A DNA stretch of 64,000 nucleotides, from NCBI GenBank assembly GCA_963529855.1, contig CAURZK010000005.1, positions 28,759 through 92,758 of the forward strand, read 5' to 3'. The notes below the pieces were generated by a model. The model did not search any database. It was not told the DNA's origin and saw only the letters and a list, made by a program, of their open reading frames with translations. This DNA is from an uncultured Erythrobacter sp. (lineage in GTDB: Bacteria > Pseudomonadota > Alphaproteobacteria > Sphingomonadales > Sphingomonadaceae). Positions 6,619-51,946 of the stretch are shown in pieces. The stretch's first letter is position 1, and each line of letters opens with the position of its first letter. A program made the position numbers and the translations under genes.

Positions 6619-6626
6619 CGGGCGTC

Positions 6627-11507: not shown

Positions 11508-11512
11508 TCAGT

Positions 11513-13959: not shown

Positions 13960-14020
13960 GGCACCGAAGTCGATGCGTGCCGGACACCAAATCAAGTCAC
14001 TGTTATTATGGAGGAAAGTC

Positions 14021-14048
14021 TAGCGTAGAAAGACAGGGAGTAGCGTAG
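14021..14048 (-). promoter_or_regulatory. Paired 8-mer TAGCGTAG x2 at 20-bp spacing upstream of traG (candidate operator)
   Basis: TAGCGTAG at 14021-14028 and 14041-14048 in the AT-richer relaxase-traG intergenic region. Confidence 0.4.
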
Positions 14049-14194
14049 TTCGGCCTATTCGATTTCCGAGCGTGATCAGCGTTATTGGACGAATATTCAC
14101 GCGATAGCCGGACCACGGCCCGGCTCTCTGCGCGCTCGGGGTCAATGACGGTGCGCCGCGCCATCGGGATTGACGTTGCGCGTGATGATCTGGC

Positions 14195-15925: not shown

Positions 15926-15935
15926 GGCGCGACAG

Positions 15936-16150
15936 GCCGCAATGTGCGGCAAACCCTGATGGCGACGGGCTTTGGCCCTGCGCCGCACAGTGCGGGATTT
16001 CCGCACACATTGCGCAGCAATGCCCGAAAGCCTTGAGAATCAAGGCCACAACCGAGGCGCAAGGGCTCCGCACATTGCCGCCCTTTATCTTGCCCTCGAC
16101 CTTCCCCCTTCAGAAAAACAGCCCTGCTTCCTTCCGGCGCTGCGAAAGCC
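15936..16150 (-). other. Inverted-repeat cluster upstream of the relaxase gene (candidate oriT / regulatory region)
   Basis: Hairpins at 15936-15950, 15983-15995, 16030-16046 and 16122-16150. The motif CCGCACA(n)TTGC occurs at 16001-16013 and 16068-16078, and inverted at 15939-15949. Confidence 0.3.
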
Positions 16151-24969: not shown

Positions 24970-25269
24970 TCAGCGCGACCAGATGAGGGCGTATTGGCCG
25001 GCGGTGTCGGTTTCGGACAGCGTGGCGTAGACGGGAGCCGGGAAGCTCGGATCGTCCAGCTTGACCGAGGTGTATTCGCGGCCTTCGCGGCTGGTCTTCT
25101 TCCAGGCAGCGCCGATATCCATGTCGGCGGTGCTGACGCGGAAGTCGGGGGACTTTTCGCCGTCCTTCTCGACCGGACGGAAGATGACCTTGGTGTTGAG
25201 AGTGAGCGTCTTGATGACGCCGGTGAACTCGCCCTTGCTGTTGGCGGTGAAGGTGCCGATCGTAGCCAT
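24970..25269 (-). CDS. DUF736 protein (paralog 2)
   Basis: 99 aa, MATIGTFTANSKGEFTGVIKTLTLNTKVIFRPV..PDFRV..IGAAWKKTSREGREYTSVKLDDPSF..YALIWSR. RBS GGAGA. Start moved to ATG 25269. Confidence 0.8.
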   Translation of the reverse strand: MATIGTFTANSKGEFTGVIKTLTLNTKVIFRPVEKDGEKSPDFRVSTADMDIGAAWKKTSREGREYTSVKLDDPSFPAPVYATLSETDTAGQYALIWSR

Positions 25270-25658
25270 GTCGTAATCTCCGTTCTTTCGGGCCACGCCC
25301 TTCGCGGCCTCGATGGTGATCGGCAGGCCGGGGGCGATTGGCCGCGCACCGCAAAGCGGCCGCAGCGTGAGCGGAGGATGGCGGCGGCCCGTTATTTTGG
25401 TTCGCGATGCAAAGCGCGGCACGCGCGGCGGAAAATAGCGGGCCATAGCCGTTGCGAAGACAATCGAGGCGAAGCCGTCGCTCGGTCAGATCACGCCATT
25501 GAGAGGCCGCCGGGGCGCTCGGCTCCGAGGGATGAGATTTCCGCTATGCCTGCCGTTTGTGTCGGCAACCCCGCCAGCAGCCTTGCGCGATGTTCATTCT
25601 ACGTTCCAAGGTGCGGCTGCTTCAGCCACATGGGGACGTGAGGATTCGGGGGAAGGAC

Positions 25659-26459
25659 GTGACGAAATTGTTTTCGCAGGATCAGCTCGAAGCCATAGCC
25701 GGTGCGCTTGGCGATACGGAAACCGGGCTGAAAGGAACCGAGATCGCGATGCTGATCGCGACCTGTCAAATGGCCGATCCCGGCGAGATGACCAAGCGGC
25801 ACCGCATCTACAACGCCTTCGCCGAAAGCCAGAACGCGCGGCAGGACCGCACCCGCATCCTCGGCTTCATCCGCCATGCGATGCGTCCTGCGCGATACAG
25901 CCGCGAGCCGCATCGCTACGAGCCGATGCGTGCCAGTCTCAACCAGGCACTCGCCTTCGCCGGCCTTGTGGTCAGCGAGGCCGGGAAGATCGAAGCGGTC
26001 GAACAGGCGACGACGCTGCCGGAAGCGCAGCGCCGGGCGAAGGAACTGCGCACCGATCTGGAGACGCGCGGCGTCCATGCCGACGTGCTGCGCTTCTGCC
26101 GGGCCGAACTGCTGGCCGACGACTATTTCCATGCGGTCCAGGAAGCGGTGAAAAGCATCGCCGACAAGATGCGCGTGCGGACTGGCCTCACCGATGACGG
26201 GGGGACGCTGGTAGACCGCGTGCTCGGCGGCGAGCCGCCGATGCTGGCGATCAATCCGCGAAGCACGGTCAGCGAGCGCAGCGAGCAGAGCGGCTTCGCC
26301 AATCTCGTCAAAGGCGTCTTCGGCATGTTCCGCAACCCAACTGCCCACGAGGCGCGCATCCACTGGCCGATGACCAAGACCGACGCCGAGGATCTGCTGA
26401 CGCTCGTATCGCTGATCCATCGCAGGCTCGATACCTCTATGATGCCACCGCGTACCTGA
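25659..26459 (+). CDS. TIGR02391 / Hypoth_ymh-family protein
   Basis: C-terminal FANLVKGVFGMFRNPTAHEARIHWPMTKTDAEDLLTLVSLIHRRLD (the RNPxxH motif recalled for this family). GTG 25659 is preceded by GGGGGAAGGA. Confidence 0.65.
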   Translation: MTKLFSQDQLEAIAGALGDTETGLKGTEIAMLIATCQMADPGEMTKRHRIYNAFAESQNARQDRTRILGFIRHAMRPARYSREPHRYEPMRASLNQALAFAGLVVSEAGKIEAVEQATTLPEAQRRAKELRTDLETRGVHADVLRFCRAELLADDYFHAVQEAVKSIADKMRVRTGLTDDGGTLVDRVLGGEPPMLAINPRSTVSERSEQSGFANLVKGVFGMFRNPTAHEARIHWPMTKTDAEDLLTLVSLIHRRLDTSMMPPRT

Positions 26460-26464
26460 TCCCT

Positions 26465-28207
26465 TCAGGGTGGCGGCGGATTGGCAACGTAATCGTCGAG
26501 CGCAGCCACGATCCGGTCGAGTAACCCGGCAAATTTCGAGAAATCGATCGTGTCCTTCTGCGGCTGCACAACCTTCTCGGCGAACCTGGCTTTGCCGTAT
26601 TTCCCGGCCTCTCCGTGCTTCTTGTTGGGGTCGAACACCTTACCATCAATGACGGTTTTCAAAAGCGCGGGATCGAACAAGTCCTCAATGCAACTTATGC
26701 CTTGCGCACCGATTTCCGGTGTTTTGATAAGATAAAGATTGGGTGCGAGCCGATAGAATGGGTCCGTGGAGGTCCGAGCTATATGCGCGGCGCCGAGGCC
26801 CTTGGCGGCACCAAAAATCTCTTTCGCTCCGTCGTCATTGTCGATGAGCACGATGATGGGGTTGGGCAGCGGGCGATGTCGGTAACGCTTGAGGGCGTCA
26901 GGGTAGCGGCGGATAAAGTGGAAAAGATCGCCTGCGCCATTCCCGAGCTGCAACACGTCATGGATCGTGCTGGAGAACTTCATGAACTTGAGTGCGGGTT
27001 TAAACTTGCCTTTGTCCATCGCGCCCAGCCTGGGATGGTAGGCAGTGAGCTTCTCCATCGCCGCACGCAGATAGACGGTATCCGTCTTTCCCTCCGGGAT
27101 GATGAGGGGCTTGGGCGCCACAACGAAGTTTCGGTAGAACAGAAACCGGATGTAGAGCTTACGGGTCGCCGTGGCCGTCGCGTCCTTCTTTTTGTCAGCG
27201 GAAGGTCGCGTATCGACCTGATCGCGCACATGATAGACGTGGCCGAGCATCCCTTGCAGCGGCGCGAGGGATGTTGCCGGCTCCGGCACATCGGGATCGC
27301 CTGCTTTGCCGCCCGCCAGCGCCGCAGGGACCATCCGATAGTAGGTTCCGCTGTTGAACAGCGACCAGCACATGGCCCGCACCGTGCGGTAGTATTCGGG
27401 ACGGACGTTCGGCTTCTCGTTGACGAGCAAGCCGGTGGCGACCTGTCGTGACCCGCGATATTGCATCCTAGTCTTGGTAGGATTTACCTCAAACCCGGCC
27501 TTTTCGATCTCCTTCAGGAGCGCGGCGCCGAGTGTCCAGTCATGCTCCGAGCCTGCGACCGGGGCGGCGATGTCAGGAGGGAATGCCTTGGCGTTCGTGG
27601 AAAAGGTGATGTCGTCGGCATAGCGTGAGTAGGTGCATTTCTGCGCCTTGGCGAAGCGCACGAGCCGGATGTCCAGTAGATGCCCGACGACATTTGAAAT
27701 GACCGGGGAACAGGGACTTCCTTGGGGAAGGACATGATCGTGGCAGGCGATCTGTGCGATCAAGGTCGCGATTTTCGGATCGAGGGCGAACCGTTTGTCC
27801 TTAATGAACATACCGCGCACGCGGCCGAAATTGATCGACGGGAAGAAATCCTTGATGTCGAGATTCAGCACGTAGCGCCGCCGTTTGTGGACCGCGGCGT
27901 TCGTTACGATGGACAGATGTTTGGCGAAGCCGTGGGAGAGCTGCCGGCGCGGTGAACCCACCTTGTCGATGTCGGCGAGCGCCAGGTAGAGGACATTGGC
28001 TAGACGCCGTTGCAGCAGCTTCAGCTTGGGCGTCGGGGCAAGAATCGCCCTCGGCGTGCCGTCGCGCTTCGGGATCGTGAACGCGGTATATTTCTGCGCG
28101 TCTGGGAGGTGATAGAGCAGGTAGGCAAGCGCGGCGGGCTTATATCCCAGGATCGCAGCTAGATCGTCGAGCGACTTTGCCGCTTGTAGTTTCGCCAGAC
28201 TCGACAC
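26465..28207 (-). CDS. Retron-type reverse transcriptase fused to a C-terminal TOPRIM domain
   Basis: NAAVH (aa 103-107), LDIKDFFPSI, LPQGSPCSPVISN, YSRYADDITFS (193-203), RQVATGLLVNEKPNV. TOPRIM signature IIPEGKTD (E372) and VLIDNDDG (D456-459). GTG start after AGGGGGG. Confidence 0.9.
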   Translation of the reverse strand: MSSLAKLQAAKSLDDLAAILGYKPAALAYLLYHLPDAQKYTAFTIPKRDGTPRAILAPTPKLKLLQRRLANVLYLALADIDKVGSPRRQLSHGFAKHLSIVTNAAVHKRRRYVLNLDIKDFFPSINFGRVRGMFIKDKRFALDPKIATLIAQIACHDHVLPQGSPCSPVISNVVGHLLDIRLVRFAKAQKCTYSRYADDITFSTNAKAFPPDIAAPVAGSEHDWTLGAALLKEIEKAGFEVNPTKTRMQYRGSRQVATGLLVNEKPNVRPEYYRTVRAMCWSLFNSGTYYRMVPAALAGGKAGDPDVPEPATSLAPLQGMLGHVYHVRDQVDTRPSADKKKDATATATRKLYIRFLFYRNFVVAPKPLIIPEGKTDTVYLRAAMEKLTAYHPRLGAMDKGKFKPALKFMKFSSTIHDVLQLGNGAGDLFHFIRRYPDALKRYRHRPLPNPIIVLIDNDDGAKEIFGAAKGLGAAHIARTSTDPFYRLAPNLYLIKTPEIGAQGISCIEDLFDPALLKTVIDGKVFDPNKKHGEAGKYGKARFAEKVVQPQKDTIDFSKFAGLLDRIVAALDDYVANPPPP

Positions 28208-28225
28208 CCCACCCCCCTAACAGGC

Positions 28226-28361
28226 GGCTTACAGGCACTCCTATGCGTACGATCAGATCGTCCGCTCAGCGGAAATGCTGCAATAAGGGTAGATGGAAGC
28301 ATCACTGCCTAACATCGGTGTCTTATATCGCGATGCGCGATAACAACTCTGCCTGTAAGCC
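28226..28361 (-). ncRNA. Candidate retron msr/msd locus
   Basis: Perfect 12-nt inverted repeat (28226-28237 / 28350-28361) encloses 112 nt with internal hairpins at 28326-28342 and 28245-28265. The proximal arm lies 18 nt upstream of the RT start codon. Two more hairpins lie at 28383-28406 and 28411-28427. Confidence 0.45.
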
Positions 28362-28450
28362 TGCGGCTGTTGTTGTCCAAAGCACTTACAATTTCAAGTG
28401 TAAGTGGCGAGCCGGGCAAGCCCCGGCGAGCTGCAGACTCAAACGACAAA

Positions 28451-28487
28451 GCGGCCGCGCCCGATTGGGGCGCGGCCGCGATTTTTT
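28451..28487. terminator. Strong intrinsic terminator hairpin (bidirectional-looking)
   Basis: GCGGCCGCGCCC-GATTG-GGGCGCGGCCGC, a 12-bp stem. It is flanked by TTTTTT on the plus strand and TTTGTCGTTT on the minus strand. Lies 28 nt after the stop of the 74-aa minus-strand gene. Confidence 0.7.
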
Positions 28488-28514
28488 GGGGCCGATTGCG
28501 AAAGGCTGTGCGGA

Positions 28515-28739
28515 TCAGCGCTGCGCTTCGCGCCAGCGCCGGGCCGCCGCCGCGCTGAACAGGGGGCGGTCTACACAGGCGCGATGCTCGACCACGAAGG
28601 CGGCGCAACCGTGCAGGACATAATCGTGGGTGACGATCTGATCGTCGGAAAAGTCGTTGATCGGCTTGCCGCAGCGGATGCAGCACAACGTGCCCGGCTG
28701 GTTGTTGCGGCGGGCGATGACGCGGAACAGGCGGCGCAT
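28515..28739 (-). CDS. Small Cys-rich (zinc-ribbon-like) hypothetical protein
   Basis: 74 aa with a strong RBS AAGGAGG 6 nt upstream of the ATG. Contains LCCIRCGKP...HGC..HRAC. Confidence 0.45.
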   Translation of the reverse strand: MRRLFRVIARRNNQPGTLCCIRCGKPINDFSDDQIVTHDYVLHGCAAFVVEHRACVDRPLFSAAAARRWREAQR

Positions 28740-28832
28740 GACGGCCTCCTTGCAGCAAGAGCGCCGCCCCGAAGGCCGGCGCGAAGGTGCGGGTGAAGCC
28801 GGGACCGCTGACGCGGCCCCGGCCCGATGCCG

Positions 28833-30902
28833 CTATTCGGCGGCGACGGCGTAGGCGGCTTCGCCATCCTCAGCCTGCGCTTCGGGAGCCTCCGCCTCGG
28901 ACGGTTCCACGGTCCCCGTATCCTCGTCCTCGACCGACGCGGGCTGCTCGGTCTCCGGCTCGGGCGTCCGCAGGATCGAGGGCAGCCATCCGGTCCCGGC
29001 CAGAAGCTGCTCGGCGGCTTGCGCCATGTCCGGCTTCTTCATGTCGGCGATACGGCGGGCGGCATCCTCGGACACGCCTTCAGTGACGGCCTCGACGATA
29101 TGACCCTTGGTGACGCGGCCGAGGTAGCTCTCCACGGTCGGCGTCCAGTCCTTCGCCACGTCCAGCGCCAGCGCGGTCGCCAGCCTGTCCGCCGTTTGTA
29201 GCGACAGGGGCTTGCGATCCCACGGCAGGCGCAGCGCGTTGACGGTGCGGGCCGCGCAATGCGCCAGCAGCAGGGTCCGCTTCTCGCAGTCCAGCGCCAC
29301 GATGAAGCCCCACAGGTCCGCCACGTCACGCGGCATCCGTTCGGCCCATGCCTCGTGTTGCTCGCTCGCCCGTGCCGCCAAGGGGGTGTCCTCGATCCCG
29401 TCCGCATGACTGCCAAGCGGCGTCACGGTCGGACGAACCTCAAGGCAACCGGCCTCGGCGTAGCTGTAGAACAGTTGCGCCGTGAGCGTATGGGTCAAGG
29501 CGACCAACGCCATATCGGGTTGCTCGGCCAGCGCCACGCGGAGCGCCAAGGTCCGATGGGCGGACAGGTCGCGCGTGAGGCTGTCGGAAATCGGCTTGCC
29601 CGGTTCCTCGTCCTCCACGTCCTCGGCTTCGGGCTCATCCTCGGCCTGCTCGTCCTCCACGCCCTCCGGGTCGATCCCTTCGCCGTCGACCTCATCCTCG
29701 GGCTGCGGGAAGGCCAGCGCCTCGTCCTCGGCCCGAATGAAGCCGCGCTCGATCCTGACCGCGCCGTCATGGTGCAGCACCACGAACGCGCCGCCGTAGG
29801 CGATCACGTTGGCGTCATAGGCATGGCGCTTCTCGGAAATGGCGTCGATCTCGTCGGAAATCGCCTCCAGCTTCTCGGCTACGTCCTCGGGCATTTCGTC
29901 GTAGGACGAATAGCCTTCGGCAAGCGCGTCATGCTCTGCGGACAGGGTGTCCAACCGCGCCTCGTCCTCATCGGACAGCGAAACGGATTGCGGATAGAAG
30001 CGCCGCATCCCGTGGGCGTGGGGGTAGTCGATATGCGCCTCGGCCCATTTCCAGCCTTCGGCCTGCACCGTCGCGGCAACCTCGCGCAGCTTCTCGACCG
30101 CAAGCATGTCGAGCAAGCCCGCATCCTCGAAGAAGCCGCCCCGGTCCTCGCTGAACAGGTCGCGGATGATATTGCCGCCCGCCTCGACATAGGCGTCGGC
30201 CCCGACGAACACCGCGCGTCGGTCGGTCGCCGGAACATTGCTCGCGGTCATGTCACGCCGGATGATCCACGGCTCGCGATTGTGATGCAGGCCCTCGAAC
30301 ACCTGCTCCTGCCGGGCATGGTCCTCGGTGATGGCGAAGGCCATAAGCTGGTCCAGCGTAAGGCCGTCCTCGCGATAGACCTGCAACAGCTTCGGACTGA
30401 CAGCGCCCAAGCGAAGCCGCTGCTTCACCACGGAGGCCGACACGCCGAACCGCGCCCCGATCTCTTCCGCGCCCCAACCCTTGTCGTTGGAAAGCTCGGC
30501 GAACCGCTCGAACTGGTCGGCGGGGTGCATGGGGGTGCGGGTGACATTTTCGTCAAGGCTTACCTCGGCGGGATCATTCGCCGTATCCAGCCAGCACCGG
30601 ACAGGTTCGGATTTCTTGCATTGTTTGCGCTTGGCGCGCAGCAGCATCGCCAGCCTGCGGCCCTCGCCAGCGGTGACGAGATAGTAGCTGGTCGGCGTCC
30701 CGTCCTCCTTGGTTTCCGGCTCCACGACAAGGTTCTGGATCAGCCCCTTATGCTGGATCGAAGCGGCCAGCGCCTCGATAGCGGCTTCCCCATGCGGCAC
30801 CTTGCGCGCGTTGCGCGGGGACTTCTTGAGCTTGGCGAGCGGCACGAAAATCTCGACGCCAGACACAGGCTCGGCGGCTGCGGTTTGGGTAACAGCGTTC
30901 AT
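28833..30902 (-). CDS. ParB-like N-terminal domain protein (ICE backbone)
   Basis: VPLAKLKKSPRNARKVPHGEAAIEALAASIQHKGLIQNLVV and HTH-like GWGAEEIGARFGVSASVVKQRLRLG, followed by a long acidic C-terminal part. ATG 30902 has an AAGGAG RBS (track ORF starts at 31169). Confidence 0.85.
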   Translation of the reverse strand: MNAVTQTAAAEPVSGVEIFVPLAKLKKSPRNARKVPHGEAAIEALAASIQHKGLIQNLVVEPETKEDGTPTSYYLVTAGEGRRLAMLLRAKRKQCKKSEPVRCWLDTANDPAEVSLDENVTRTPMHPADQFERFAELSNDKGWGAEEIGARFGVSASVVKQRLRLGAVSPKLLQVYREDGLTLDQLMAFAITEDHARQEQVFEGLHHNREPWIIRRDMTASNVPATDRRAVFVGADAYVEAGGNIIRDLFSEDRGGFFEDAGLLDMLAVEKLREVAATVQAEGWKWAEAHIDYPHAHGMRRFYPQSVSLSDEDEARLDTLSAEHDALAEGYSSYDEMPEDVAEKLEAISDEIDAISEKRHAYDANVIAYGGAFVVLHHDGAVRIERGFIRAEDEALAFPQPEDEVDGEGIDPEGVEDEQAEDEPEAEDVEDEEPGKPISDSLTRDLSAHRTLALRVALAEQPDMALVALTHTLTAQLFYSYAEAGCLEVRPTVTPLGSHADGIEDTPLAARASEQHEAWAERMPRDVADLWGFIVALDCEKRTLLLAHCAARTVNALRLPWDRKPLSLQTADRLATALALDVAKDWTPTVESYLGRVTKGHIVEAVTEGVSEDAARRIADMKKPDMAQAAEQLLAGTGWLPSILRTPEPETEQPASVEDEDTGTVEPSEAEAPEAQAEDGEAAYAVAAE

Positions 30903-31360
30903 TGTCTTCACTCCTTCAAAAGCACACGCACCCCGGAGCGGGGTGGGCGGCGAAAGAGCGACCGGCAGGCCCGCCGGCGGAGCCGGGCAGCACCCAAGGG
31001 GCCGGAAAGAAGAGGAGGACGCGCACCGCGCGTTGCGGCCCGGCGCGGCGGGCCTAAAGGGAAGCGACGCCCACCCCGCGGGAGGGGAGCGTAGCGACCC
31101 AACAAAGCGATCGGGACGGCGCACGCCCTGGCCCGATCTCCGCAGTCTGGAAAAGCTGGAATCCGCCACGGCGGATTTGCCGATCGGCGTGGATACGCCG
31201 ACGTTTGGGGCGTTGCGGGGTTGCCCCCGCTTGAAGGGGTCTGACGAGACCCGCGTGGCTCGTCAGTAGGGGAAGTCCTTCCCCAACCGGTCGGTGACGT
31301 CATCCTGTAATTACGGTTGCTTCGGCGCTTCCGGGAGTCTGATTGCAGCGCTAGTCATAT

Positions 31361-32119
31361 GTGATGAGCACAGCCTACTTAAACGCGATTCTGGCTCGGG
31401 AGGCTGTCGATACCAGCGCATTCTCCCCTGTTCGGCAGGTCCAAACAATTATCGCGCCCGTGCTTCAACGATGGGCAAACCGTTTCTTGCTGTCGATCTC
31501 TCCAAGCGGTTCTTTTGCCAAGGGCACGGCCAATCGAAGCGGCACCGACATCGACCTTTTCATTTCTCTGCACGAAGACACGCCCGAAACCTTGAAGGAT
31601 ATTTGCGGCTCGCTCTTCAACGCCATTGCGGGTGCCGGCTATGCGCCAAAACGGCAGAATGTGTCGATCAACGCGACGATCGGCGGCTTCGATGTCGATC
31701 TCGTCCCTGGCAAACGGCAGACCGCCTGGACGACAGATCACAGCCTTTACCGTCGCAAAGCCGATACCTGGACGAAGACAAATGTGACGACACATATCAA
31801 CACCGTCGTCATGGCCGGCCATCAGCGCGAGTCGCGGCTCCTGAAGCTATGGCGCAACCAGAAGCGGCTCGAATTCCCGTCCTTCTACCTGGAGCTGACA
31901 GTGATCGCCGCCTTGCACGGTAGGCAATCGCAGGATCTGGCGCAGAATGTTGTGAAGGTGCTGGAGTATCTCCGAGACAGGTTCGCCGCAGCACGGGTGG
32001 TCGATCCCGCCAATGGCAACAACGTCATATCGGACGATCTCACCGACACGGAGAAGCAAGCGGTGCGGCGATTGGCGGAAGCTGCGCTGAGCGGCAATTG
32101 GAGCGGTTTCGTCCAATGA
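31361..32119 (+). CDS. cGAS/OAS/SMODS-like minimal nucleotidyltransferase
   Basis: Pol-beta NTase signature SPSGSFAKGTANRSGTDIDLFISL (G50-S51, D63, D65) with a third Asp in GGFDVDLVPG (D111/D113). OAS1-C-like helical lobe LKLWRNQKRLEFPSFYLELTVIAAL. 252 aa. Confidence 0.8.
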   Translation: MMSTAYLNAILAREAVDTSAFSPVRQVQTIIAPVLQRWANRFLLSISPSGSFAKGTANRSGTDIDLFISLHEDTPETLKDICGSLFNAIAGAGYAPKRQNVSINATIGGFDVDLVPGKRQTAWTTDHSLYRRKADTWTKTNVTTHINTVVMAGHQRESRLLKLWRNQKRLEFPSFYLELTVIAALHGRQSQDLAQNVVKVLEYLRDRFAAARVVDPANGNNVISDDLTDTEKQAVRRLAEAALSGNWSGFVQ

Positions 32120-32835
32120 CCGACTGGTCCCTCAAAACTCTGCTGCAAAGCCTGCACGACGAGATCGAAGCGAAGCTGGGCATCGCGCGCGGTAGCTTCG
32201 GCCACGGCGGAACGAAGGGTGACGCCAGCGAAGCTGTTTGGCTAGAGCTGTTGCAGGCCTATTTGCCGGAACGGTATCGCGCTGCCGGCGCCCATGTCGT
32301 CGACAGCAAGGGCGCCTTCAGCCACCAGATCGATATCGTCATTTTCGATCGGCAATATTCGCCCTTTATCTTCAATTTCAAAGGCCAGTTCATCGTACCG
32401 GCAGAGAGCGTCTATGCCGTGTTCGAGACCAAGCAGGCGATCAATGCCCAGCACGTCGCTTATGCAGCGGACAAGGTGGCCAGTGTTCGCGCGCTCCATC
32501 GGACGAGCCTGCCGATACCCTACGCCGGCGGTGTCTACGATCCGCGACCGCTGCCGGACATTATCGGCGGATTGCTTACGTTCGAAAGCGTATGGAATCC
32601 GCCGCTGGGCCAACCGCTGACCGATGCGCTCGCAGCCCTCGATGGGCAGCACCGCCTCGATATTGGATGCGTCGCGGCGCATGGGGTGTTCGGCTGTGAC
32701 ACGGACGGCTGCTCGCAAGCGGAGGTCGGCGTGCGAGCGGCGACGCGCTTCCTGCTCAACCTTATCGCTCGCCTCCAGGCGAGCGCGACGGTTCCGATGA
32801 TCGATGTGGGTGCCTATGCCGCGTGGCTCGACTGA
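32116..32835 (+). CDS. PD-(D/E)xK-type putative nuclease (DUF6602-like), coupled to the NTase
   Basis: ATG 32116 overlaps the NTase TGA (ATGA). Contains HGGTKGDASEAVWLELLQAYLP, SHQIDIVIFD (D73) and VFETKQ (E104-x-K106). 239 aa. Confidence 0.6.
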   Translation: MTDWSLKTLLQSLHDEIEAKLGIARGSFGHGGTKGDASEAVWLELLQAYLPERYRAAGAHVVDSKGAFSHQIDIVIFDRQYSPFIFNFKGQFIVPAESVYAVFETKQAINAQHVAYAADKVASVRALHRTSLPIPYAGGVYDPRPLPDIIGGLLTFESVWNPPLGQPLTDALAALDGQHRLDIGCVAAHGVFGCDTDGCSQAEVGVRAATRFLLNLIARLQASATVPMIDVGAYAAWLD

Positions 32836-32847
32836 CCGCGCGGCCCG

Positions 32848-35310
32848 CTAAGCTGCCGGGATCGGAACCGCGATCTGATTGGCGACGGCGGTATAAAGGT
32901 CGATGTCGGTCTCGGGCGCGCGGATCGACACACACAATGCATAGCGGGCGGAACGATCCCAGCGCTGGAGACCAGGCTTCTCCTTCCACCATCCGCTGAC
33001 GGGAAAGACGCCGATCGCGTCGCGCTCGGCGAGGGCTGCCGCGCTCCCACGCCAAATGTCGCTATGGATCGAACCGCGGTCACGGATCGTCCCCAGAACC
33101 CAGGAGTCGCCGCCTGCGACAGCGCCGACAGCGCCAGCCTCTTCGTCCTGAGCCGCCTTGTTGATCCGCTGCCGGAACGCTTCCAAACCTTCGAGCGACC
33201 GCTTCACCGCAAAGCGGAGATTGTGTGAAGCGTAGCGGTGGCGCCGCGTCCAGCCCCGTTCTCCGGGATTGGGCTCGACGAAATAGGACAGGGTGATCCG
33301 CAGTTCCACATCGAGATCGCCAAGCGCGGCCAGTTCGGCGCGCGGCCAGGGCAGTCGATGCAGATTCATGTCGCGCGTCTTGATCGCCGAGCCATCCTTG
33401 CGGAACGGCAACAGGGCGTCCTCGACCATCAAAGTCGCGTCGTTGGACGCGCTCATCAGCGCCCGGCCAAGGTCAGGCACGCCCCAACCGTAGCGGCGCA
33501 GCATGGCCAGCTTCTGACTTTGCGAGCCGGCCGCGTCGAAGCGCTGGCGCATCGCCGGCGTCCATTCGGCGGAATGGACAATGAGCGCGCGTACCGTTTC
33601 CGGCCAGAGTGTCGGACGCGCTGCGATAATGCCGGCGGCAAGATTCGCGCCGAGCGCGGCAGCGCCGCTGGTGTCGCCGAACGCTTCAAACAGGCGCATG
33701 GCGGGACGATAGTGGGTCGTGAGGAGTTGGAGGTCGTCGATCGCCGAGGCCGGGTTGGCGCCGTCATGCGCGAAGTTACCGCCCTCGAACACGACATCCG
33801 GACGGATCGGCCATTGCCGATCCCAGATTGCGGACGTTCGGCTTGCCGGTGAGAGGTCGCCGGCCGGGGCGACGGGCGTCCATCCGTCATAGTCGGGATG
33901 GGTGATCATGATCTTGTCGGTGCTGGCCCCAACGACGAGCGGATTCCACGCCTGCCCCGGGCTTTCGACCTCTTCGAGGTCGTTGCGGTCAGGATAGTCG
34001 GCCGGATTGATGTCCCCGCGGAGATTGCCCGCCGCCAGGACCATGAGGCGTCGCCTGTCACCGCCGCCATAGCAGAGTTGATCGATTGACGAGGACCACG
34101 AGGACGGCCGGCCTCGGCCCAGGCCGACGTCGCTGGTCACGGCCATGCAGAACACGCGCCGGCGACGGGGAGCATGGTCTTCGGCGCGGGCGATGCCGGT
34201 TGCCGTGATCGCCCCGTAAAGTCGCGGCTCGTTCTGCCCGGTTGGCGGCAGGATCTTCACCGTTTCGAGGCGATGACCAAGCGCGACCGGCTCGCCGTGG
34301 GAAAGCGCCGCTTCGAGATCGCCATAAAGCGCGACACCAGCCATCGAGGTGCCGTGACCATTCCAGAAGGCGCTGTCGCCGACACCCCAGTCACCGTCGT
34401 AGCTATGCTGATCGGCAGGATCGAGGCCAGGCGCGAGCAGGGGGTGGGCCTGGGTCGCTCCGCTGTCCAGTATGCAGACCGCCGGTGCCAAGGGGGACGG
34501 CGGTGCGATCCGATCAGCCAAGTCGTTCGCCCAAGCGGCCTGATCGACCGTGCGCATTTCGAGAAAGAGCGACGGCGTGTCCTTGGCGAGGCGCAGTTCA
34601 GCGACGACATCGGAATTGCGTATCAGCCGATCCATCGTCGCTTCATCGGCGAGCGCCAGCGCGACATCGCGCTCGGGAAAGCTGATGACGTGATCCTTGA
34701 TCGCGACATCGAGCTTGGCAGCGACAGACTGGAAGATTGCGAGACCGCCATCCCGAAGCCAGACTTCCCACCACACCTGACGGCCGTCGGCGGGAAAGTG
34801 CTGCGCTTCATCGGTGAATAGCGAGCGAGCGACCGCGACCCTGATATCGTCGATCCGAGCGATCAGGGCCTCGTTCTTGGGCTTGCCGGTGCGCGTCTCC
34901 TCGTCGCGATAGGCTTCGATCTTCTTGACGAAGAAATCGGCAGCGGCTTCCGGGACAAACACAGTGGCCGAGACCATTTCGTCGCCCTCCGCAGTGGGCC
35001 GCACGGCTACCAGTTCGATAGCCTTCGGCTTGTTCTCCAGGGCTTCGACAGCGGCGCGCTCGGCGATAGGAATATCGAACTCTAGATAAAAGCCTGGCTG
35101 GCCCTCGGCTACGCCATCTTCCCGATCGGCGAGCCGTTGGCGGCCGGCGGCCAGCGCCGTTCCGATCGCCTGTTCCAATCGTGCGGCGTGCGCGGCTCGC
35201 GCCCGCGCGGGAGGGAGGCCGCTTATGACCAGGCGCGGTGACGTGTAAGCCTCGCTTTGGCCGCCGCCTTCGACGTGGAAATGGGGGCGGTCGCGGGGAG
35301 GTACAGCCAT
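32848..35310 (-). CDS. S8 (subtilisin-like) serine peptidase with ~270-aa unassigned N-terminal region (IetS-like)
   Basis: Catalytic motifs VCILDSG (D282), WNGHGTSMAG (H319), LAAGN (N429) and FGDTSGAAALG (S548). 820 aa. Starts 13 nt downstream of the AAA+ gene. Confidence 0.85.
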   Translation of the reverse strand: MAVPPRDRPHFHVEGGGQSEAYTSPRLVISGLPPARARAAHAARLEQAIGTALAAGRQRLADREDGVAEGQPGFYLEFDIPIAERAAVEALENKPKAIELVAVRPTAEGDEMVSATVFVPEAAADFFVKKIEAYRDEETRTGKPKNEALIARIDDIRVAVARSLFTDEAQHFPADGRQVWWEVWLRDGGLAIFQSVAAKLDVAIKDHVISFPERDVALALADEATMDRLIRNSDVVAELRLAKDTPSLFLEMRTVDQAAWANDLADRIAPPSPLAPAVCILDSGATQAHPLLAPGLDPADQHSYDGDWGVGDSAFWNGHGTSMAGVALYGDLEAALSHGEPVALGHRLETVKILPPTGQNEPRLYGAITATGIARAEDHAPRRRRVFCMAVTSDVGLGRGRPSSWSSSIDQLCYGGGDRRRLMVLAAGNLRGDINPADYPDRNDLEEVESPGQAWNPLVVGASTDKIMITHPDYDGWTPVAPAGDLSPASRTSAIWDRQWPIRPDVVFEGGNFAHDGANPASAIDDLQLLTTHYRPAMRLFEAFGDTSGAAALGANLAAGIIAARPTLWPETVRALIVHSAEWTPAMRQRFDAAGSQSQKLAMLRRYGWGVPDLGRALMSASNDATLMVEDALLPFRKDGSAIKTRDMNLHRLPWPRAELAALGDLDVELRITLSYFVEPNPGERGWTRRHRYASHNLRFAVKRSLEGLEAFRQRINKAAQDEEAGAVGAVAGGDSWVLGTIRDRGSIHSDIWRGSAAALAERDAIGVFPVSGWWKEKPGLQRWDRSARYALCVSIRAPETDIDLYTAVANQIAVPIPAA

Positions 35311-35323
35311 CGGGCCTCGTTGC

Positions 35324-36307
35324 TTAGAGGATGGCCGCGCGCCGCTCCGTCAGAGCGGTCAGCAGCGTCGCGGTCGTCACGCCGTCGTGGCCATCCAGCA
35401 CCGCGACTTTTGCCGCCTCGTCGGCAGCTCTGGCGACTTCGGCCTGGGAGAGATGGGCAGCGGATTCGAGAACAGGCCCCCATTCGATCGGCTTGAGATC
35501 GAAGGTCGCGAGCCGGGCTTCGAGGATGCCCTGCACAACCGAGGGATCGGGAAGATCGTAACTGATGACATCGTCGAACCGGCGATAAAGCGCCTTGTCG
35601 AGCAATTCGGGGTGATTGGTCGCGGCGACGATGAGGCTCGGGCCATCGTCATTCTCCAGAAACTGGAGGAAGGAATTGAGCACCCGGCGAATTTCCCCGA
35701 CGTCGTTCGGCCCGGCCCGTTGCGCACCGATCGCGTCAAACTCGTCGAAGAAGTAGACACCGCGCTGCATGGCAACGGCGTCGAAGACAAGTCTCAGCCG
35801 TGTGGCGGTCTCGCCCATGAGCTTGCCGATCAGGCCGTCGTAAAGGACCGTGAAAAGGGGCAGCTTCAACTCGCCGGCCAGGGCGGCGGCGGTCATTGTC
35901 TTGCCTGCGCCAGGAGGGCCGACGAGCAGGAGCTTGCGGCGCGGCGCGAGCCCCCGCGCGCGAAGCCGCTCCTGCTGGCGCTGTTCCCGAAGCACGCGCG
36001 CAAGCCGCTCCTCAAGTTCCGGCTTGAGCACCATGCTCGACAACCGGACATCGGAATAGCGGGCTTCCAGAAGCCCGGCGAGTTCACCCTTCGGCTGCGC
36101 CATTGGCACGGGGCCGGCCCCGCGCCGCGCCACCGTCGCGCTTTTACCCTTGGCGGCGTCGACCAGTTCGCGCAGCTCCTGAGCGAGCTTCCCATGCCCT
36201 TGCCTCGCCTCATGCGCGGCAAGCTGCGTCGCCACGGAGAGGAAGCGATCTTCATCCCCGTCGATATGGCTTTGCAGCAGTGCAACGATGTGGCGCGCGG
36301 TTGTCAT
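35324..36307 (-). CDS. AAA+ ATPase (IetA-like)
   Basis: Walker A GPPGAGKT (130-137), Walker B VYFFDEFD (D188 E189), sensor-1 VAATNHPE, Arg ALYRRFD. Confidence 0.9.
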   Translation of the reverse strand: MTTARHIVALLQSHIDGDEDRFLSVATQLAAHEARQGHGKLAQELRELVDAAKGKSATVARRGAGPVPMAQPKGELAGLLEARYSDVRLSSMVLKPELEERLARVLREQRQQERLRARGLAPRRKLLLVGPPGAGKTMTAAALAGELKLPLFTVLYDGLIGKLMGETATRLRLVFDAVAMQRGVYFFDEFDAIGAQRAGPNDVGEIRRVLNSFLQFLENDDGPSLIVAATNHPELLDKALYRRFDDVISYDLPDPSVVQGILEARLATFDLKPIEWGPVLESAAHLSQAEVARAADEAAKVAVLDGHDGVTTATLLTALTERRAAIL

Positions 36308-36704
36308 AGGTCAGTTCAAAATTCCGCCTCGGGTTTGGAGAACTTTTAAGGAATCTAGCGTCGGTGATTCGCTGTGTAACGCGAATTCGTACAAGGGGTC
36401 GTTACTGCCCCCTCTGCCCTTCGCCAACACAGCATTTAGCCCGCGCCCATGGTCCGCTGTTCCGGCCGCAATCCGTCGGTATCGACTGGCTAATGACCGA
36501 CGTCCCCCCGAGCCCATAGTTGGACGCCCCCATCGGGTCATCACGACCGCAAAAGGGCATGGTGAGTTTGGTTCGGCGAGTTTTCTGCGGAAATCCAAGG
36601 GTTTCGCGTTGTGCCGCCGCGAGCGTGGTGAGTTTCCGACTTTGAGAGGCGGCGCACCAAGGGCGCTGCGGCAGTCTTAACTCACTGATTTTATTGAGAT
36701 ATTT

Positions 36705-36781
36705 TGGCGCACCCAAGAGGATTCGAACCTCTGGCCTTCGCCTTCGGAGGGCGACGCTCTATCCAGCTGAGCTATGGGTGC
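36705..36781 (-). tRNA. tRNA-Arg (anticodon CCG), CCA encoded
   Basis: Hand-folded cloverleaf: acceptor GCACCCA/TGGGTGC, D arm GCTC-AGCTGGATA-GAGC, anticodon arm TCGCC-CTCCGAA-GGCGA, T arm AGAGG-TTCGAATC-CCTCT, then GCCA. Confidence 0.95.
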
Positions 36782-36948
36782 GTGTGGCGTGAGCCGTAAG
36801 TTTTACGCCGATGAAGGTCAATCCGCGATCGGAATCGGCTTACCCGAGCGCGGTGAGTTTCTGGTGAGTTTTTTCGTCCGTCCTTTCTTCCGTCTTCCTA
36901 AGCCCTCGAAAATCCTGTATAAAATCACTGCTCTCGCGTCGGACGTGA

Positions 36949-36990
36949 GCCTTCGGAGGGCGACACTCTATCCAGCTGAGCTACGGGTGC
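36949..36990 (-). pseudogene. 42-nt copy of the 5' half of a tRNA-Arg (pos 1 to anticodon loop)
   Basis: 40/42 identical to 36740-36781, with differences at tRNA positions 7 and 26. Homology stops in the anticodon loop. Confidence 0.8.
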
Positions 36991-37537
36991 CTGTGCTTAC
37001 GCGATGCTTACGCGGAAAGGGTCAAGATGTGAACCTATTCCTTCCAATTCCTTAAGCCCTTAAATTTTCGACCAATTCCTTCAAAGAAATCGCTTTAGGC
37101 TGCATTGACACCTGCCTTCGGATTCTCGCACCCGAGCGGTTTCACATGCACCAAGCCTGGGCTCCGTTGCTGCCATGGTTCGAATGGCTGACCCTGTCGG
37201 GATTTCTCGCAGGAGCGGTGGGCAGTTTTCTCTACGGCTGGTACATCGCACTCATCGCGGTCCCGCTGCACCGGTTTTTCCAGGCCCGGTTTTCCTGATT
37301 TGACGCGCTGAATATTAGGCGCACTCAGCGTGGACTGCCGTGCCTTGACGCGCCGCCATCGGCATCGCTGCAGGAAGAAAGAGCGCGCCGCCGGAAATCG
37401 ATAGCTCATCGCGATTCCGGGGCCAGCCCAAGGATGGCTCATGCCCCGCCAGAAAATTTTTTGAGGGGTGAGCCGCTTCGCAACGTACTGTTTGTCGTGA
37501 TGTTTCTCGGACGGGAGGACATCGACAGGGGAAAGAC

Positions 37538-49125: not shown

Positions 49126-49309
49126 CAGGACCTGGACCGAGCGCCAACTCTGAATACCCATATCAAGAGAAACGGCGCTGGACCCGGCGAACGTTAGGCG
49201 TGAAATTTCGGGGTGGAGGATAATTGTCCTGCACCTGCCTGCGCGTCCTTCATACAGAGAAGTTTAGGGGTCTTCCGTGCCTTTAACGGCTGATGTCTAA
49301 TGGGCCGTC

Positions 49310-49340
49310 TTGACCTTCCCATGATGGGAAGGACTACATT
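49310..49340 (+). promoter_or_regulatory. MerR/CueR-type promoter with 19-bp spacer and perfect dyad
   Basis: TTGACC (49310-49315), a 19-nt spacer containing CCTTCCC-ATGAT-GGGAAGG, then TACATT (49335-49340). Confidence 0.75.
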
Positions 49341-49371
49341 GTGGGTCGAACCTAAATCTGCCGCTGCGGAG

Positions 49372-50871: not shown

Positions 50872-50887
50872 AAGAAAGGAAAAACTG

Positions 50888-51334
50888 ATGCGTTTGTTAC
50901 CCAAGGTCTTGATGTCGTTTTCGGCCCTCGCGCTGCTGCCCTCGGCCGCGGCGGCACAGGAAGCAAGACCGTTTGCCACGATCTTCAAGAACCCTCAGTG
51001 TAGTTGCTGTGAAAGCTACGGCGACTATCTCGAAGCCAGCGGATATGAGGTGAAGATGGTCGCGACCCACGACCTCGCCCTAATCAAGGAACGCCAGGGT
51101 GTGCCCGCCGGGCTCGAGGGATGCCATACGATGCTCATCGGCGGCTACTTCGTCGATGGACATGTGCCGGCCGACAGCGTTGACCGCCTGCTGGAGGAAC
51201 GTCCGCGAATTTCAGGCATCACGCTTCCCGGCATGCCTGCAGGTTCGCCGGGCATGGGCGGTGCCAAGACAGGCACGTGGACGATTACGGGCGTAAGAGC
51301 GGATGGTGCCACGAGCGTCTTTGCGCGATACTGA
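50888..51334 (+). CDS. DUF411 (CopG-type) metal-binding periplasmic protein
   Basis: Signal peptide, CSCCESY, GCHTMLIGGYFVDGHVP, GMPAGSPGM. Confidence 0.85.
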   Translation: MRLLPKVLMSFSALALLPSAAAAQEARPFATIFKNPQCSCCESYGDYLEASGYEVKMVATHDLALIKERQGVPAGLEGCHTMLIGGYFVDGHVPADSVDRLLEERPRISGITLPGMPAGSPGMGGAKTGTWTITGVRADGATSVFARY

Positions 51335-51348
51335 GCACCGTCCGAAGC

Positions 51349-51807: not shown

Positions 51808-51882
51808 GCGGGCGCTTTAACCTTCCAATGATGGGAATGCAAGGTGGCTGGCTGAAAGCCGAGAAAATCTCCACAAAATGCC

Positions 51883-51913: not shown

Positions 51914-51946
51914 CTTCGTATTGGTTGATTCGATGAAGGAAAAGAA

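What the first reader, a model, noticed from the sequence alone, without database searches (positions are those of the whole stretch)
31361..32835. Translationally coupled cGAS/SMODS-like nucleotidyltransferase + PD-(D/E)xK (DUF6602-like) two-gene module with no recognisable sensor domain
Seen in sequence: the 252-aa protein has a complete pol-beta/CD-NTase active site, with G50-S51 and D63-x-D65 in SPSGSFAKGTANRSGTDIDLFISL and a third Asp in GGFDVDLVPG. It also has an OAS1-C-like helical lobe (LKLWRNQKRLEFPSFYLELTVIAAL). Its TGA overlaps the ATG of the next gene (ATGA at 32116-32119). That 239-aa protein has the restriction-endonuclease-fold triad layout: E39 helix, IDIVIFD (D73) and FETKQ (E104-x-K106). 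Established knowledge: small SMODS/CD-NTase enzymes paired with an effector make nucleotide second messengers in CBASS-type abortive infection. Known nuclease effectors carry a dedicated ligand sensor (SAVED or a NucC-type allosteric pocket). Inference: here the NTase is ~100 aa shorter than typical CD-NTases, and the putative nuclease has no SAVED-like extension that I can see. I see no Cap2/Cap3-like ancillary genes. The pair sits next to three other candidate immunity modules on an ICE. It could therefore be a minimal or new signalling-nuclease system, or the NTase may modify a protein or nucleic acid instead of making a signal. I do not recall this pairing being experimentally characterised.
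Basis: partly seen in the sequence, partly recalled or inferred. Interest (0 to 1): 0.8.

Follow-up and report, generated by a model that had tools for sequence, protein, structure and literature searches.

The report
Two-gene CBASS: short cyclase plus NucC
This is an ordinary two-gene anti-phage CBASS system, in which a small cGAS-like cyclase most likely makes cyclic tri-AMP that switches on the well-studied DNA-cutting enzyme NucC; the kind is already catalogued and is not a new signalling nuclease.

Summary
There are two co-oriented ORFs, 31364-32119 (251 aa; 252 from the GTG at 31361) and 32116-32835 (239 aa), sharing an ATGA overlap, and all the motifs cited are present.

PADLOC recognises both proteins full-length as CBASS parts: "Cyclase" PDLC00803 (2.6e-90) and "Effector, Endonuclease (NucC)" PDLC00745 (1.6e-101).

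Protein 2 is 61% identical over its full length to crystallised E. coli NucC. It keeps the active site (D73, E104, K106) and every cyclic tri-AMP pocket residue (R53, Y81, T225, V226). The "missing sensor" is therefore NucC's built-in allosteric pocket.

Protein 1 folds as a CD-NTase. Its closest structures are CdnC and CdnD, the two NucC-partnered cAAA synthases. It carries the cA3-type specificity residues SGSF, Lid1 Thr and Lid2 His.

In 80 related genomic loci, NucC lies immediately downstream in 72. A 4-nt overlap is present in 70 of the 73 loci scored. No third gene is conserved, so there is no HORMA/Trip13 or Cap2/Cap3. This makes it a Type I CBASS.

A Type I "CdnC03-NucC" operon has already been shown to restrict phages. 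Verdict: a new member of a known kind, of low interest. How the cyclase senses phage remains unknown.

The parts
31364..32119 (+). CBASS cyclase: a short (251 aa) CdnC-like CD-NTase. An alternative GTG start at 31361 gives 252 aa.
   Evidence: PADLOC Cyclase PDLC00803 at 2.6e-90, matching 2-249 of 253 profile positions. A profile of 38 homologues hits E. coli CdnC 6p80 at 1.5e-12 and P. aeruginosa CdnD at 3e-7. The AlphaFold model (pLDDT 86.6) has CdnC as its top Foldseek hit, at 2e-13 and TMq 0.73-0.76, followed by CdnD.
31505..31516 (+). XGSX nucleotide-binding motif, S48-G49-S50-F51 (SGSF).
   Evidence: Invariant in alignment A1. Ser at the first position is the cA3-type signature: SGSL in EcCdnC and SGSY in BcCdnD, against QGSI in cAAG synthases (PMC13424991 section 6).
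31547..31555 (+). Catalytic D62-I63-D64 (metal-binding DxD).
   Evidence: Invariant in A1. It aligns to the catalytic DID of CdnC.
31697..31699 (+). Third catalytic Asp, D112 (in GGFDVDLVP).
   Evidence: Invariant in A1. It aligns to the DVDIVP motif of CdnC.
31778..31795 (+). Lid residues: T139 (Lid 1) to H144 (Lid 2), within TKTNVTTH.
   Evidence: Both are invariant. They align to the T...H of EcCdnC (ETSIPLH) and PaCdnD (KTDPEIH). A His at Lid 2 correlates with a cAAA product.
32116..32119 (+). ATGA stop/start overlap, indicating translational coupling.
   Evidence: Seen directly in the sequence. The same 4-nt overlap occurs in 70 of 73 related loci.
32116..32835 (+). NucC, a cyclic-trinucleotide-activated DNA endonuclease (CBASS effector, 239 aa).
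   Evidence: PADLOC Effector 'Endonuclease (NucC)' at 1.6e-101 and NucC at 4e-55. PDB matches: P. aeruginosa NucC 6q1h at 1.3e-89, E. coli NucC 6p7o at 1.2e-88 and Vibrio NucC 6uxf at 6e-72, all full length. It is 60.9% identical to Ec NucC. Pfam DUF6602 at 2.4e-30.
32332..32433 (+). NucC active site: I72-D73 ... E104-T105-K106, matching the IDx30E(A/T)K motif.
   Evidence: D73, E104 and K106 are conserved in 74-75 of 75 sequences. The motif and the D73N dead mutant are described in preprint 10.1101/694703.
32272..32274 (+). R53, which contacts the cAAA phosphates.
   Evidence: Conserved in 74/74 sequences. Its role is described.
32356..32358 (+). Y81, which stacks on the adenine of cAAA.
   Evidence: Conserved in 73/74 sequences. 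Its role is described.
32521..32538 (+). Gate-loop latch positions Y136 (His in E. coli NucC) and Y141.
   Evidence: the window has Tyr at 136 and Tyr at 141. Both positions vary across the family (His 43, Thr 18, Asn 6, and others).
32788..32793 (+). T225-V226 (Ec T226/V227), which contact the cAAA phosphate and adenine N6.
   Evidence: Thr in 72/74 and Val in 62/74 sequences. Their roles are described.

Best explanation
The pair is a Type I (two-gene) CBASS abortive-infection system. Gene 1 encodes a compact, clade-C-like CD-NTase. On phage infection it most likely condenses three ATP into 3'3'3'-cyclic tri-AMP (cAAA). Gene 2 encodes NucC. NucC is a homotrimeric restriction-endonuclease-fold DNase that binds one cAAA in the pocket on its three-fold axis and closes its gate loops. 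Two trimers then pair into a hexamer, which brings active sites together and cuts double-stranded DNA non-specifically. This kills the infected cell before the phage matures. The 4-nt ATGA overlap couples translation of cyclase and nuclease.

Shown here:
- the identity of both proteins;
- conservation of the catalytic and ligand-binding residues;
- the obligate pairing of the two genes and their 4-nt overlap;
- the absence of accessory genes.

Inferred:
- that the product is cAAA, from specificity motifs and from the partner being NucC;
- the trimer-to-hexamer activation mechanism, by 61% identity to crystallised NucC;
- the anti-phage phenotype, from a tested CdnC03-NucC operon and the defence-island context.

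Not known: what activates the cyclase, since there is no HORMA/Trip13, Cap2/3 or other regulator.
For: - Both proteins match dedicated CBASS models over their full length.
- NucC is 61% identical to E. coli NucC. Its PDB E-values are 1e-88 to 1e-89. D73/E104/K106 and R53/Y81/T225/V226 are conserved; their functions are defined.
- The cyclase profile is closest to CdnC (1.5e-12), then CdnD.
- The predicted structure (pLDDT 86.6) has CdnC and CdnD as its best Foldseek hits, and all top hits are CD-NTases.
- SGSF, Lid1 Thr139 and Lid2 His144 match the cA3-synthase signature.
- NucC is directly downstream in 72 of 80 genomes spanning Alpha-, Beta- and Gammaproteobacteria, Acidobacteriota, Verrucomicrobia, Nitrospira and Obscuribacter-type lineages. 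The 4-nt overlap occurs in 70/73.
- No third conserved neighbour was found.
- In the window the pair is boxed in by a divergent ParB-like gene (190-bp gap) and a convergent IetS gene (12-bp gap), which leaves no room for accessory genes.
- Lau et al. state that CD-NTase clades C01, C03 and D05 associate with NucC. The companion Ye et al. preprint links only C01 and D05 with HORMA/Pch2 operons.
- A Type I XpCdnC03-NucC operon restricts phages.
Against: - There is no biochemical or genetic data for this locus.
- I could not obtain the XpCdnC03 sequence or the Whiteley/Millman clade tables. Assigning this cyclase to clade C03 is therefore an inference, based on its being closest to CdnC, always NucC-linked and never HORMA-linked.
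- Pfam SMODS (17.6 bits against a 26.5 cutoff) and the NCBIfam CBASS cyclase models (53 bits against 200) are below their curated thresholds.
- The gate-loop latch His136 is Tyr here, and latch positions vary across the family, so gating details may differ from E. coli NucC.
- No sigma-70-like promoter was found upstream.
Confidence: 0.88

Rival explanations
1. The architecture is as above, but the cyclase makes a different signal, such as cAAG, a 2'-5'-linked trinucleotide or cA4, which still activates this NucC variant.
For: The product was not measured. E. coli and Vibrio NucC are weakly activated by cAA and cAAG. The gate-loop latch residues differ from E. coli NucC.
Against: All four cAAA-contacting residues are conserved. 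The cyclase carries the Ser-GS and Lid2-His signature of cAAA synthases, not the Gln signature of cAAG synthases.
Confidence: 0.08
2. It is a Type III CBASS remnant, or a system that borrows the neighbouring AAA+ ATPase (35324-36307) as a Trip13-like regulator.
For: The AAA+ protein gives weak TRIP13 hits (1e-9). The closest solved cyclase relatives are HORMA/Trip13-regulated.
Against: The ATPase matches IetA far better (4e-71). It is paired with an S8 peptidase, IetS, on the opposite strand. There is no HORMA gene. Across 80 loci no third gene is conserved, and only the six closest Sphingomonad-type loci carry IetAS nearby.
Confidence: 0.02
3. The NTase is a non-signalling enzyme, such as an MNT-type antitoxin, an antibiotic NTase or a protein/nucleic-acid nucleotidyltransferase. 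In that case the pair would be a toxin-antitoxin module with the nuclease as toxin.
For: The best Pfam hit above threshold is the generic NTP_transf_2 (22.7 bits). The protein is short (251 aa).
Against: The profile and Foldseek top hits are exclusively CD-NTases over about 270-290 aligned columns, including the C-terminal helical lobe. PADLOC's CBASS cyclase model matches at 2.6e-90. The partner is a ligand-gated nuclease with an intact cAAA pocket.
Confidence: 0.02

Closest known systems
Type I CBASS 'XpCdnC03-NucC' operon (Richmond-Buccola et al., preprint 10.1101/2023.05.21.541620; Cell Host Microbe 2024)
   Same: It has the same two-gene architecture, a clade-C CD-NTase plus NucC with no accessory genes. 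It was shown to restrict dsDNA phages when expressed in E. coli.
   Different: It comes from a gammaproteobacterial source. I could not retrieve its sequence, so the degree of identity to the window cyclase, and whether that cyclase is also about 252 aa, was not tested.
E. coli MS115-1 Type III CBASS: CdnC-HORMA-Trip13-NucC (PDB 6p80, 6p8v, 6p7o/6p7p)
   Same: NucC is 61% identical, with the same active site and the same cAAA pocket. CdnC is the closest solved relative of the cyclase. The SGS-x, Lid1 Thr and Lid2 His motifs are the same.
   Different: There is no HORMA or Trip13 here. The cyclase is about 70 aa shorter (251 against 321 aa) and only about 20% identical. The latch residue His136 is Tyr.
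P. aeruginosa ATCC27853 Type III CBASS: CdnD-HORMA1/2-Trip13-NucC (PDB 6p82, 6q1h)
   Same: This NucC is the best PDB hit (1.3e-89). It belongs to a cAAA-producing system.
   Different: It uses a clade D cyclase, which is more distant (3e-7). It also has two HORMA proteins and Trip13, which are absent here.
Type III CRISPR-associated NucC (Vibrio metoecus, PDB 6uxf; Serratia, PDB 7zgv)
   Same: It is the same nuclease family, activated by cA3.
   Different: There the signal comes from Cas10. Here no CRISPR-Cas is adjacent and the conserved partner is a CD-NTase.

Membership tests
NucC (CD-NTase-associated nuclease) | Full-length sequence homology to experimentally defined NucC proteins | tested here: met
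   Residues 1-238 of 239 align to 6q1h, 6p7o and 6uxf at E 1e-89 to 6e-72. Identity to Ec NucC is 60.9%. PADLOC NucC models score 1.6e-101 and 4e-55.
NucC (CD-NTase-associated nuclease) | Restriction-endonuclease active site IDx30EAK (D73, E104, K106) | tested here: met
   The window has I72-D73...E104-T105-K106, conserved in 74-75 of 75 family members.
NucC (CD-NTase-associated nuclease) | cAAA allosteric pocket residues (Ec R53, Y81, T226, V227) | tested here: met
   R53, Y81, T225 and V226 are all present in the window and near-invariant in the family.
NucC (CD-NTase-associated nuclease) | Gate-loop latch His136/Tyr141 | tested here: inconclusive
   The window has Tyr136/Tyr141, so the aromatic pair is retained. 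The positions are variable in the family.
NucC (CD-NTase-associated nuclease) | Homotrimer that forms a hexamer and cleaves dsDNA on cAAA binding | not testable with these tools
   This needs SEC-MALS and plasmid cleavage assays. It is inferred from 61% identity to crystallised NucC.
CD-NTase (cGAS/DncV-like nucleotidyltransferase) | Pol-beta NTase core with GS motif and the [D/E]xD...D catalytic triad | tested here: met
   G49-S50, D62-x-D64 and D112 are invariant in 38 homologues and align to the CdnC catalytic residues.
CD-NTase (cGAS/DncV-like nucleotidyltransferase) | Bilobed cGAS/OAS-like fold including the C-terminal helical lobe | tested here: met
   AF2 model with pLDDT 86.6 and pTM 0.79. 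Foldseek hits to CdnC, CdnD, CdnE, CdnB and CdnG give TMq 0.67-0.80 over about 270-290 columns at E 2e-13 to 1e-8.
CD-NTase (cGAS/DncV-like nucleotidyltransferase) | Curated family thresholds (Pfam SMODS, NCBIfam CBASS cyclase) | tested here: not met
   SMODS scores 17.6 bits against a 26.5 cutoff. NF041116 scores 53 bits against 200. These general models under-detect this short subfamily, whereas the PADLOC subfamily model PDLC00803 scores 300 bits.
CD-NTase (cGAS/DncV-like nucleotidyltransferase) | Synthesis of a cyclic oligonucleotide | not testable with these tools
   cAAA is predicted from SGSF, Lid1 T139 and Lid2 H144 and from the NucC partner.
CD-NTase clade C03 (Whiteley nomenclature) | Placement in the published CD-NTase tree | not tested
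   The reference sequences and tables were not retrievable. The assignment is inferred. CdnC is the closest solved relative. NucC association is reported for clades C01, C03 and D05, while HORMA/Pch2 operons are reported only for C01 and D05.
CBASS Type I | Cyclase plus effector only, with no ancillary genes | tested here: met
   The window pair is flanked by a divergent ParB-like gene and a convergent IetS gene. There is no third conserved gene in 80 loci.
CBASS Type III | HORMA protein(s) plus Trip13/Pch2 ATPase in the operon | tested here: not met
   There is no HORMA gene. The nearby AAA+ protein is IetA (4e-71 against TRIP13 1e-9) on the other strand, paired with IetS. It is not conserved across loci.
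CBASS Type II | Cap2 (E1/E2) and Cap3 (JAB) genes | tested here: not met
   No such neighbours are present in the window or conserved in related loci.

The most novel reading that the evidence does not exclude
The uniformly ~252-aa, HORMA-independent, NucC-dedicated cyclase family may be the smallest self-sufficient CD-NTase. It may detect infection by a cue not yet described for CBASS, that is, something other than HORMA-bound peptides, cabRNA, protease-cleaved activation loops or Cap2 conjugation. Alternatively it may be basally active and held in check only by stoichiometric coupling to NucC through the conserved 4-nt overlap. Nothing in my data says how it is switched on.
Probability: 0.25. 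Interest if true: 0.45.

Novelty: new member of a known kind. Interest (0 to 1): 0.15.

Why it matters
For this locus, very little: it is one more Type I CBASS in a defence island on a conjugative element. Two points have modest practical value.

- Genome annotation pipelines name the pair only "nucleotidyltransferase" and "DUF6602 domain-containing protein". Pfam and NCBIfam thresholds miss the cyclase. Readers working from generic annotation will therefore keep "rediscovering" it. DUF6602 here is simply the NucC nuclease core.
- The cyclase family is unusually compact, very well conserved (mean column identity 71%) and widespread, with 2509 database hits. That makes it a convenient minimal model for the open question of how Type I CD-NTases sense phage without accessory proteins.

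Tried and rejected
- Pfam and NCBIfam alone gave only weak cyclase hits and 'DUF6602'. PADLOC and the PDB searches resolved it.
- I tested whether the neighbouring AAA+ ATPase could be Trip13. It is IetA, paired with IetS.
- I looked for any conserved third gene in 80 loci by all-against-all clustering of ORFs within -3.5 to +4.5 kb. Apart from the cyclase and NucC themselves, the widely shared clusters were ORFs overlapping those two genes in other frames or on the opposite strand; clusters lying outside the pair occurred in at most 6 loci.
- I examined the loci lacking NucC. L014 has a 419-aa ORF of unidentified function on the opposite strand. L018 and L039 carry large downstream ORFs that I read by eye as mobile-element (transposase/integrase-like) genes but did not scan. 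L045 has an altered cyclase C-terminus. L073 has an unrelated 263-aa gene. L058 and L075 end at the contig edge. None shows an evident alternative effector.
- Attempts to read Millman 2020 (PMC7610970), Whiteley 2019 (PMC6544370), Lau 2020 (PMC7036143) and Richmond-Buccola 2024 (PMC11239291) failed, as did the attempt to get supplements of the preprint. The clade C03 assignment and the comparison with XpCdnC03 therefore remain inferential.
- Literature searches for 'CdnC03' and for Xanthomonas plus NucC added nothing.
- The promoter/terminator scan found nothing useful on the + strand.
- A megablast of 26000-37000 against plasmids found no close relative.
- Rfam found only a tRNA in 24-38 kb.
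Full report
**1. Observation**

The two ORFs exist as described. Gene 1 runs 31361(GTG)/31364(ATG)-32119 on the + strand (252/251 aa). Gene 2 runs 32116(ATG)-32835 on the + strand (239 aa). ATGA at 32116-32119 serves as the stop of gene 1 and the start of gene 2. Homologues start MS(D/T)AYL, so ATG 31364 is the probable start.

The quoted motifs are real:
- In the cyclase, S48-G49-S50-F51, D62-I-D64 and D112 are all invariant among 38 homologues.
- In the nuclease, E39, D73, E104 and K106 are essentially invariant among 75 sequences.

The pair is boxed in. A divergent ParB-like gene ends at 31169, leaving a 190-bp gap. A convergent 820-aa gene starts at 32848, leaving a 12-bp gap. No further gene can belong to this operon.

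**2. Identity of the two proteins**

- Pfam gives the cyclase only NTP_transf_2 (22.7 bits) and a sub-threshold SMODS hit. It gives the nuclease DUF6602.
- NCBIfam's CBASS cyclase models score far below their cut-offs, and there is no NCBIfam model for the nuclease.
- RefSeq/PLSDB records annotate homologous pairs as "nucleotidyltransferase | DUF6602 domain-containing protein".

The defence-specific library is unambiguous. PADLOC's CBASS "Cyclase" model PDLC00803 matches residues 2-249 of a 253-position profile at 2.6e-90. Its CBASS "Effector, Endonuclease (NucC)" model PDLC00745 matches residues 1-239 at 1.6e-101.

Against solved structures, protein 2 aligns end to end with three NucC proteins:
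- P. aeruginosa NucC (6q1h, 1.3e-89);
- E. coli MS115-1 NucC (6p7o, 1.2e-88);
- Vibrio metoecus CRISPR-associated NucC (6uxf, 6e-72).

It is 60.9% identical to E. coli NucC.

**3. The "missing sensor"**

Lau et al. (preprint 10.1101/694703) showed that NucC has no separate sensor domain. One cAAA binds in a three-fold-symmetric pocket of the homotrimer, contacted by R53, Y81, T226 and the main chain of V227. Gate loops latched by H136/Y141 close over the ligand. Two trimers then form a hexamer that is competent for double-strand cleavage through the IDx30EAK active site (D73).

Mapping these positions onto the window protein and 73 genomic homologues gives the following:
- R53, Y81, T225 and V226 are all present and near-invariant.
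- D73, E104 and K106 are all present.
- The only difference is Tyr instead of His at latch position 136. That position varies across the family.

The protein therefore does have a recognisable sensor.

**4. The cyclase**

A profile built from 38 homologues finds E. coli CdnC (6p80) at 1.5e-12 and P. aeruginosa CdnD at 3e-7.

An AlphaFold2 model (mean pLDDT 86.6, pTM 0.79) was searched against the PDB with Foldseek.
- The best hits are CdnC (E 2e-13, TMq 0.73-0.76), then CdnD.
- CdnE, CdnB and CdnG follow.
- NF90/NF45 and CCA-adding enzymes appear only lower down the list.
- No antibiotic NTase or MNT antitoxin appears near the top.

CdnC and CdnD are precisely the two characterised cyclases that signal to NucC with cAAA.

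The family is uniformly 250-255 aa, about 70 aa shorter than CdnC. The HMM alignment suggests where the shortening lies: the N-terminus, a few internal loops, and about 40 residues at the C-terminus. The bilobed fold is retained.

Specificity determinants summarised in PMC13424991 section 6 are a small residue (Ser/Thr) before GS, a Lid 1 Thr, and a Lid 2 His five residues later for cAAA synthases. cAAG synthases have Gln at the first position of the motif and Gln at Lid 2. The window enzyme has SGSF, T139 and H144, all invariant. The T...H pair aligns with ETSIPLH of CdnC and KTDPEIH of CdnD. I therefore predict 3'3'3'-cAAA as the product. This is an inference, not a measurement.

**5. Conservation of the pairing and system type**

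A scan of one genome per GTDB species with the family alignment returned 209 confirmed loci, of which 80 were kept. They come from Sphingomonadales, Rhizobiales, Rhodobacterales, Acetobacteraceae, Burkholderiales, Xanthomonadales (Luteimonas), Acidobacteriota, Verrucomicrobia, Nitrospira and Obscuribacter-type lineages.

- NucC lies immediately downstream of the cyclase in 72 of 80 loci.
- The eight exceptions are contig ends or disrupted or rearranged loci, not evident alternative effectors.
- Exact start/stop geometry could be scored in 73 loci. In 70 of them the genes overlap by the same 4 nt. Translational coupling is thus a family trait.
- Clustering all neighbouring ORFs found no third gene shared beyond six near-identical loci.
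- There is therefore no HORMA, Trip13, Cap2, Cap3, CapW or CapH/P as a family feature.

The nearby AAA+ ATPase in the window is IetA (4e-71, against 1e-9 for TRIP13). It is partnered with the S8 protease IetS on the opposite strand. By the Millman classification as summarised, this is a Type I CBASS.

**6. Comparison with what is known**

Lau et al. noted that CD-NTase clades C01, C03 and D05 associate with NucC, and that C01 and C03 do so primarily. Ye et al. tie only C01 and D05 to HORMA/Pch2 operons. Richmond-Buccola et al. cloned a Type I "XpCdnC03-NucC" operon and reported phage restriction in E. coli.

The window system matches that description: a clade-C-like cyclase, dedicated to NucC, without HORMA. 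I could not retrieve XpCdnC03 or the clade tables. The C03 label is therefore inferred, not tested. Either way, the kind of system is catalogued, the effector mechanism is solved, and a representative has a demonstrated phenotype.

**7. Mechanism, with levels of support**

- Shown here: protein identities, intact catalytic and ligand residues, obligate pairing and coupling, and the absence of accessory genes.
- Inferred from close homology: the NucC trimer-to-hexamer switch and non-specific dsDNA cleavage leading to abortive infection.
- Inferred from motifs and partner: cAAA as the messenger.
- Unknown: the trigger of the cyclase. Known triggers elsewhere are HORMA-bound peptides, phage RNA, protease cleavage of activation loops and Cap2 conjugation. 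None has an obvious counterpart here. This is the one open aspect, and it is shared with most Type I CBASS.

**8. Context**

The window carries conjugation genes at 3-16 kb: CagX/VirB9-like, VirB4-like, a VirD4 coupling protein and a DUF3363 relaxase.

A defence cluster follows:
- a PD-Lambda-3_B hit (25557-26459);
- a type I-C retron RT-Toprim (26468-28207);
- the CBASS pair;
- IetAS (32848-36307).

A tRNA-Arg(CCG) lies at 36705-36781. Copper-resistance cargo lies at 49-62 kb.

The block 31316-36990 (CBASS + IetAS + tRNA) is 93-95% identical at the nucleotide level to contigs from Sphingomonadaceae and to one labelled Acidovorax delafieldii. The adjacent ParB-like gene is only about 75% identical. 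The two defence systems therefore seem to travel together as a cassette.

**9. Verdict**

This is a CBASS signalling-nuclease pair, but it is neither sensor-less nor uncharacterised. It is a new member of a known kind (Type I CBASS, CdnC-like cyclase plus NucC).

Interest is 0.15. The residual interest lies only in the unknown activation cue of this very compact cyclase family.

Noticed in passing
window 32848-36307 (- strand): An IetAS defence system sits convergent to NucC with a 12-bp gap. It consists of an S8 subtilase-like IetS (820 aa; PADLOC 1.4e-28; Pfam Peptidase_S8 2.5e-61) and the AAA+ ATPase IetA (327 aa; PADLOC 4.4e-71).
   Followed up: partly
window 26468-28207 (- strand): Retron type I-C reverse transcriptase-Toprim fusion (580 aa; PADLOC 3e-215). 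Its msr/msd non-coding RNA was not searched for. Rfam gathering thresholds gave nothing in 24-38 kb except the tRNA.
   Followed up: no
window 24994-26459 (+ strand): ORF 25557-26459 matches PD-Lambda-3_B (3.6e-81). The preceding ORF 24994-25641 may be PD-Lambda-3_A but gave no hit at 1e-5.
   Followed up: no
window 31316-36990; L001-L004: CBASS + IetAS + tRNA-Arg form one block that is 93-95% nucleotide-identical in Sphingomonadaceae contigs and in a contig labelled Acidovorax delafieldii. The adjacent ParB-like gene is only about 75% identical. This suggests that the two defence systems move as a cassette between related conjugative elements. The left boundary lies only 48 bp upstream of the cyclase ATG.
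   Followed up: partly
window 36705-36781 (- strand): tRNA-Arg (anticodon CCG) lies just beyond IetA. It is a possible integration or attachment landmark for the element. No integrase was looked for.
   Followed up: no
window 28833-31169 (- strand): ParB-like protein with weak ParB_N and HTH_ParB hits. The first ~88 residues of the longest ORF are Arg/Pro-rich and look like a spurious upstream extension, so the real start is probably near the internal MNAVTQTAAAE.
   Followed up: no
window 3231-16006 and 49300-62204: Conjugation genes are present: CagX/VirB9-like, VirB4-like P-loop, VirD4 coupling protein and a DUF3363/MobA-type relaxase. A copper-resistance cluster is also present: multicopper oxidase, outer-membrane factor, CusB-CusF fusion, CusA-like RND pump and a CopA-type P-ATPase. 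Together these support a conjugative element carrying defence and metal-resistance cargo.
   Followed up: partly
PLSDB hits H2-H14: Homologous pairs on Rhizobium, Sinorhizobium, Agrobacterium and Caballeronia plasmids (14 of 25 matching plasmid records are predicted conjugative) are annotated only as 'nucleotidyltransferase' and 'DUF6602 domain-containing protein'. Pfam DUF6602 here corresponds to the NucC nuclease core, so this is an annotation gap.
   Followed up: partly
L014, L018, L039, L045, L073: In these related loci the short cyclase has no adjacent NucC. L018 and L039 carry large downstream ORFs that look by eye like mobile-element (transposase/integrase-like) genes; these were not scanned. 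L014 has a 419-aa ORF of unidentified function on the opposite strand. L045 has an altered cyclase C-terminus. L073 has an unrelated 263-aa gene. These look like decayed or disrupted systems rather than effector swaps.
   Followed up: partly
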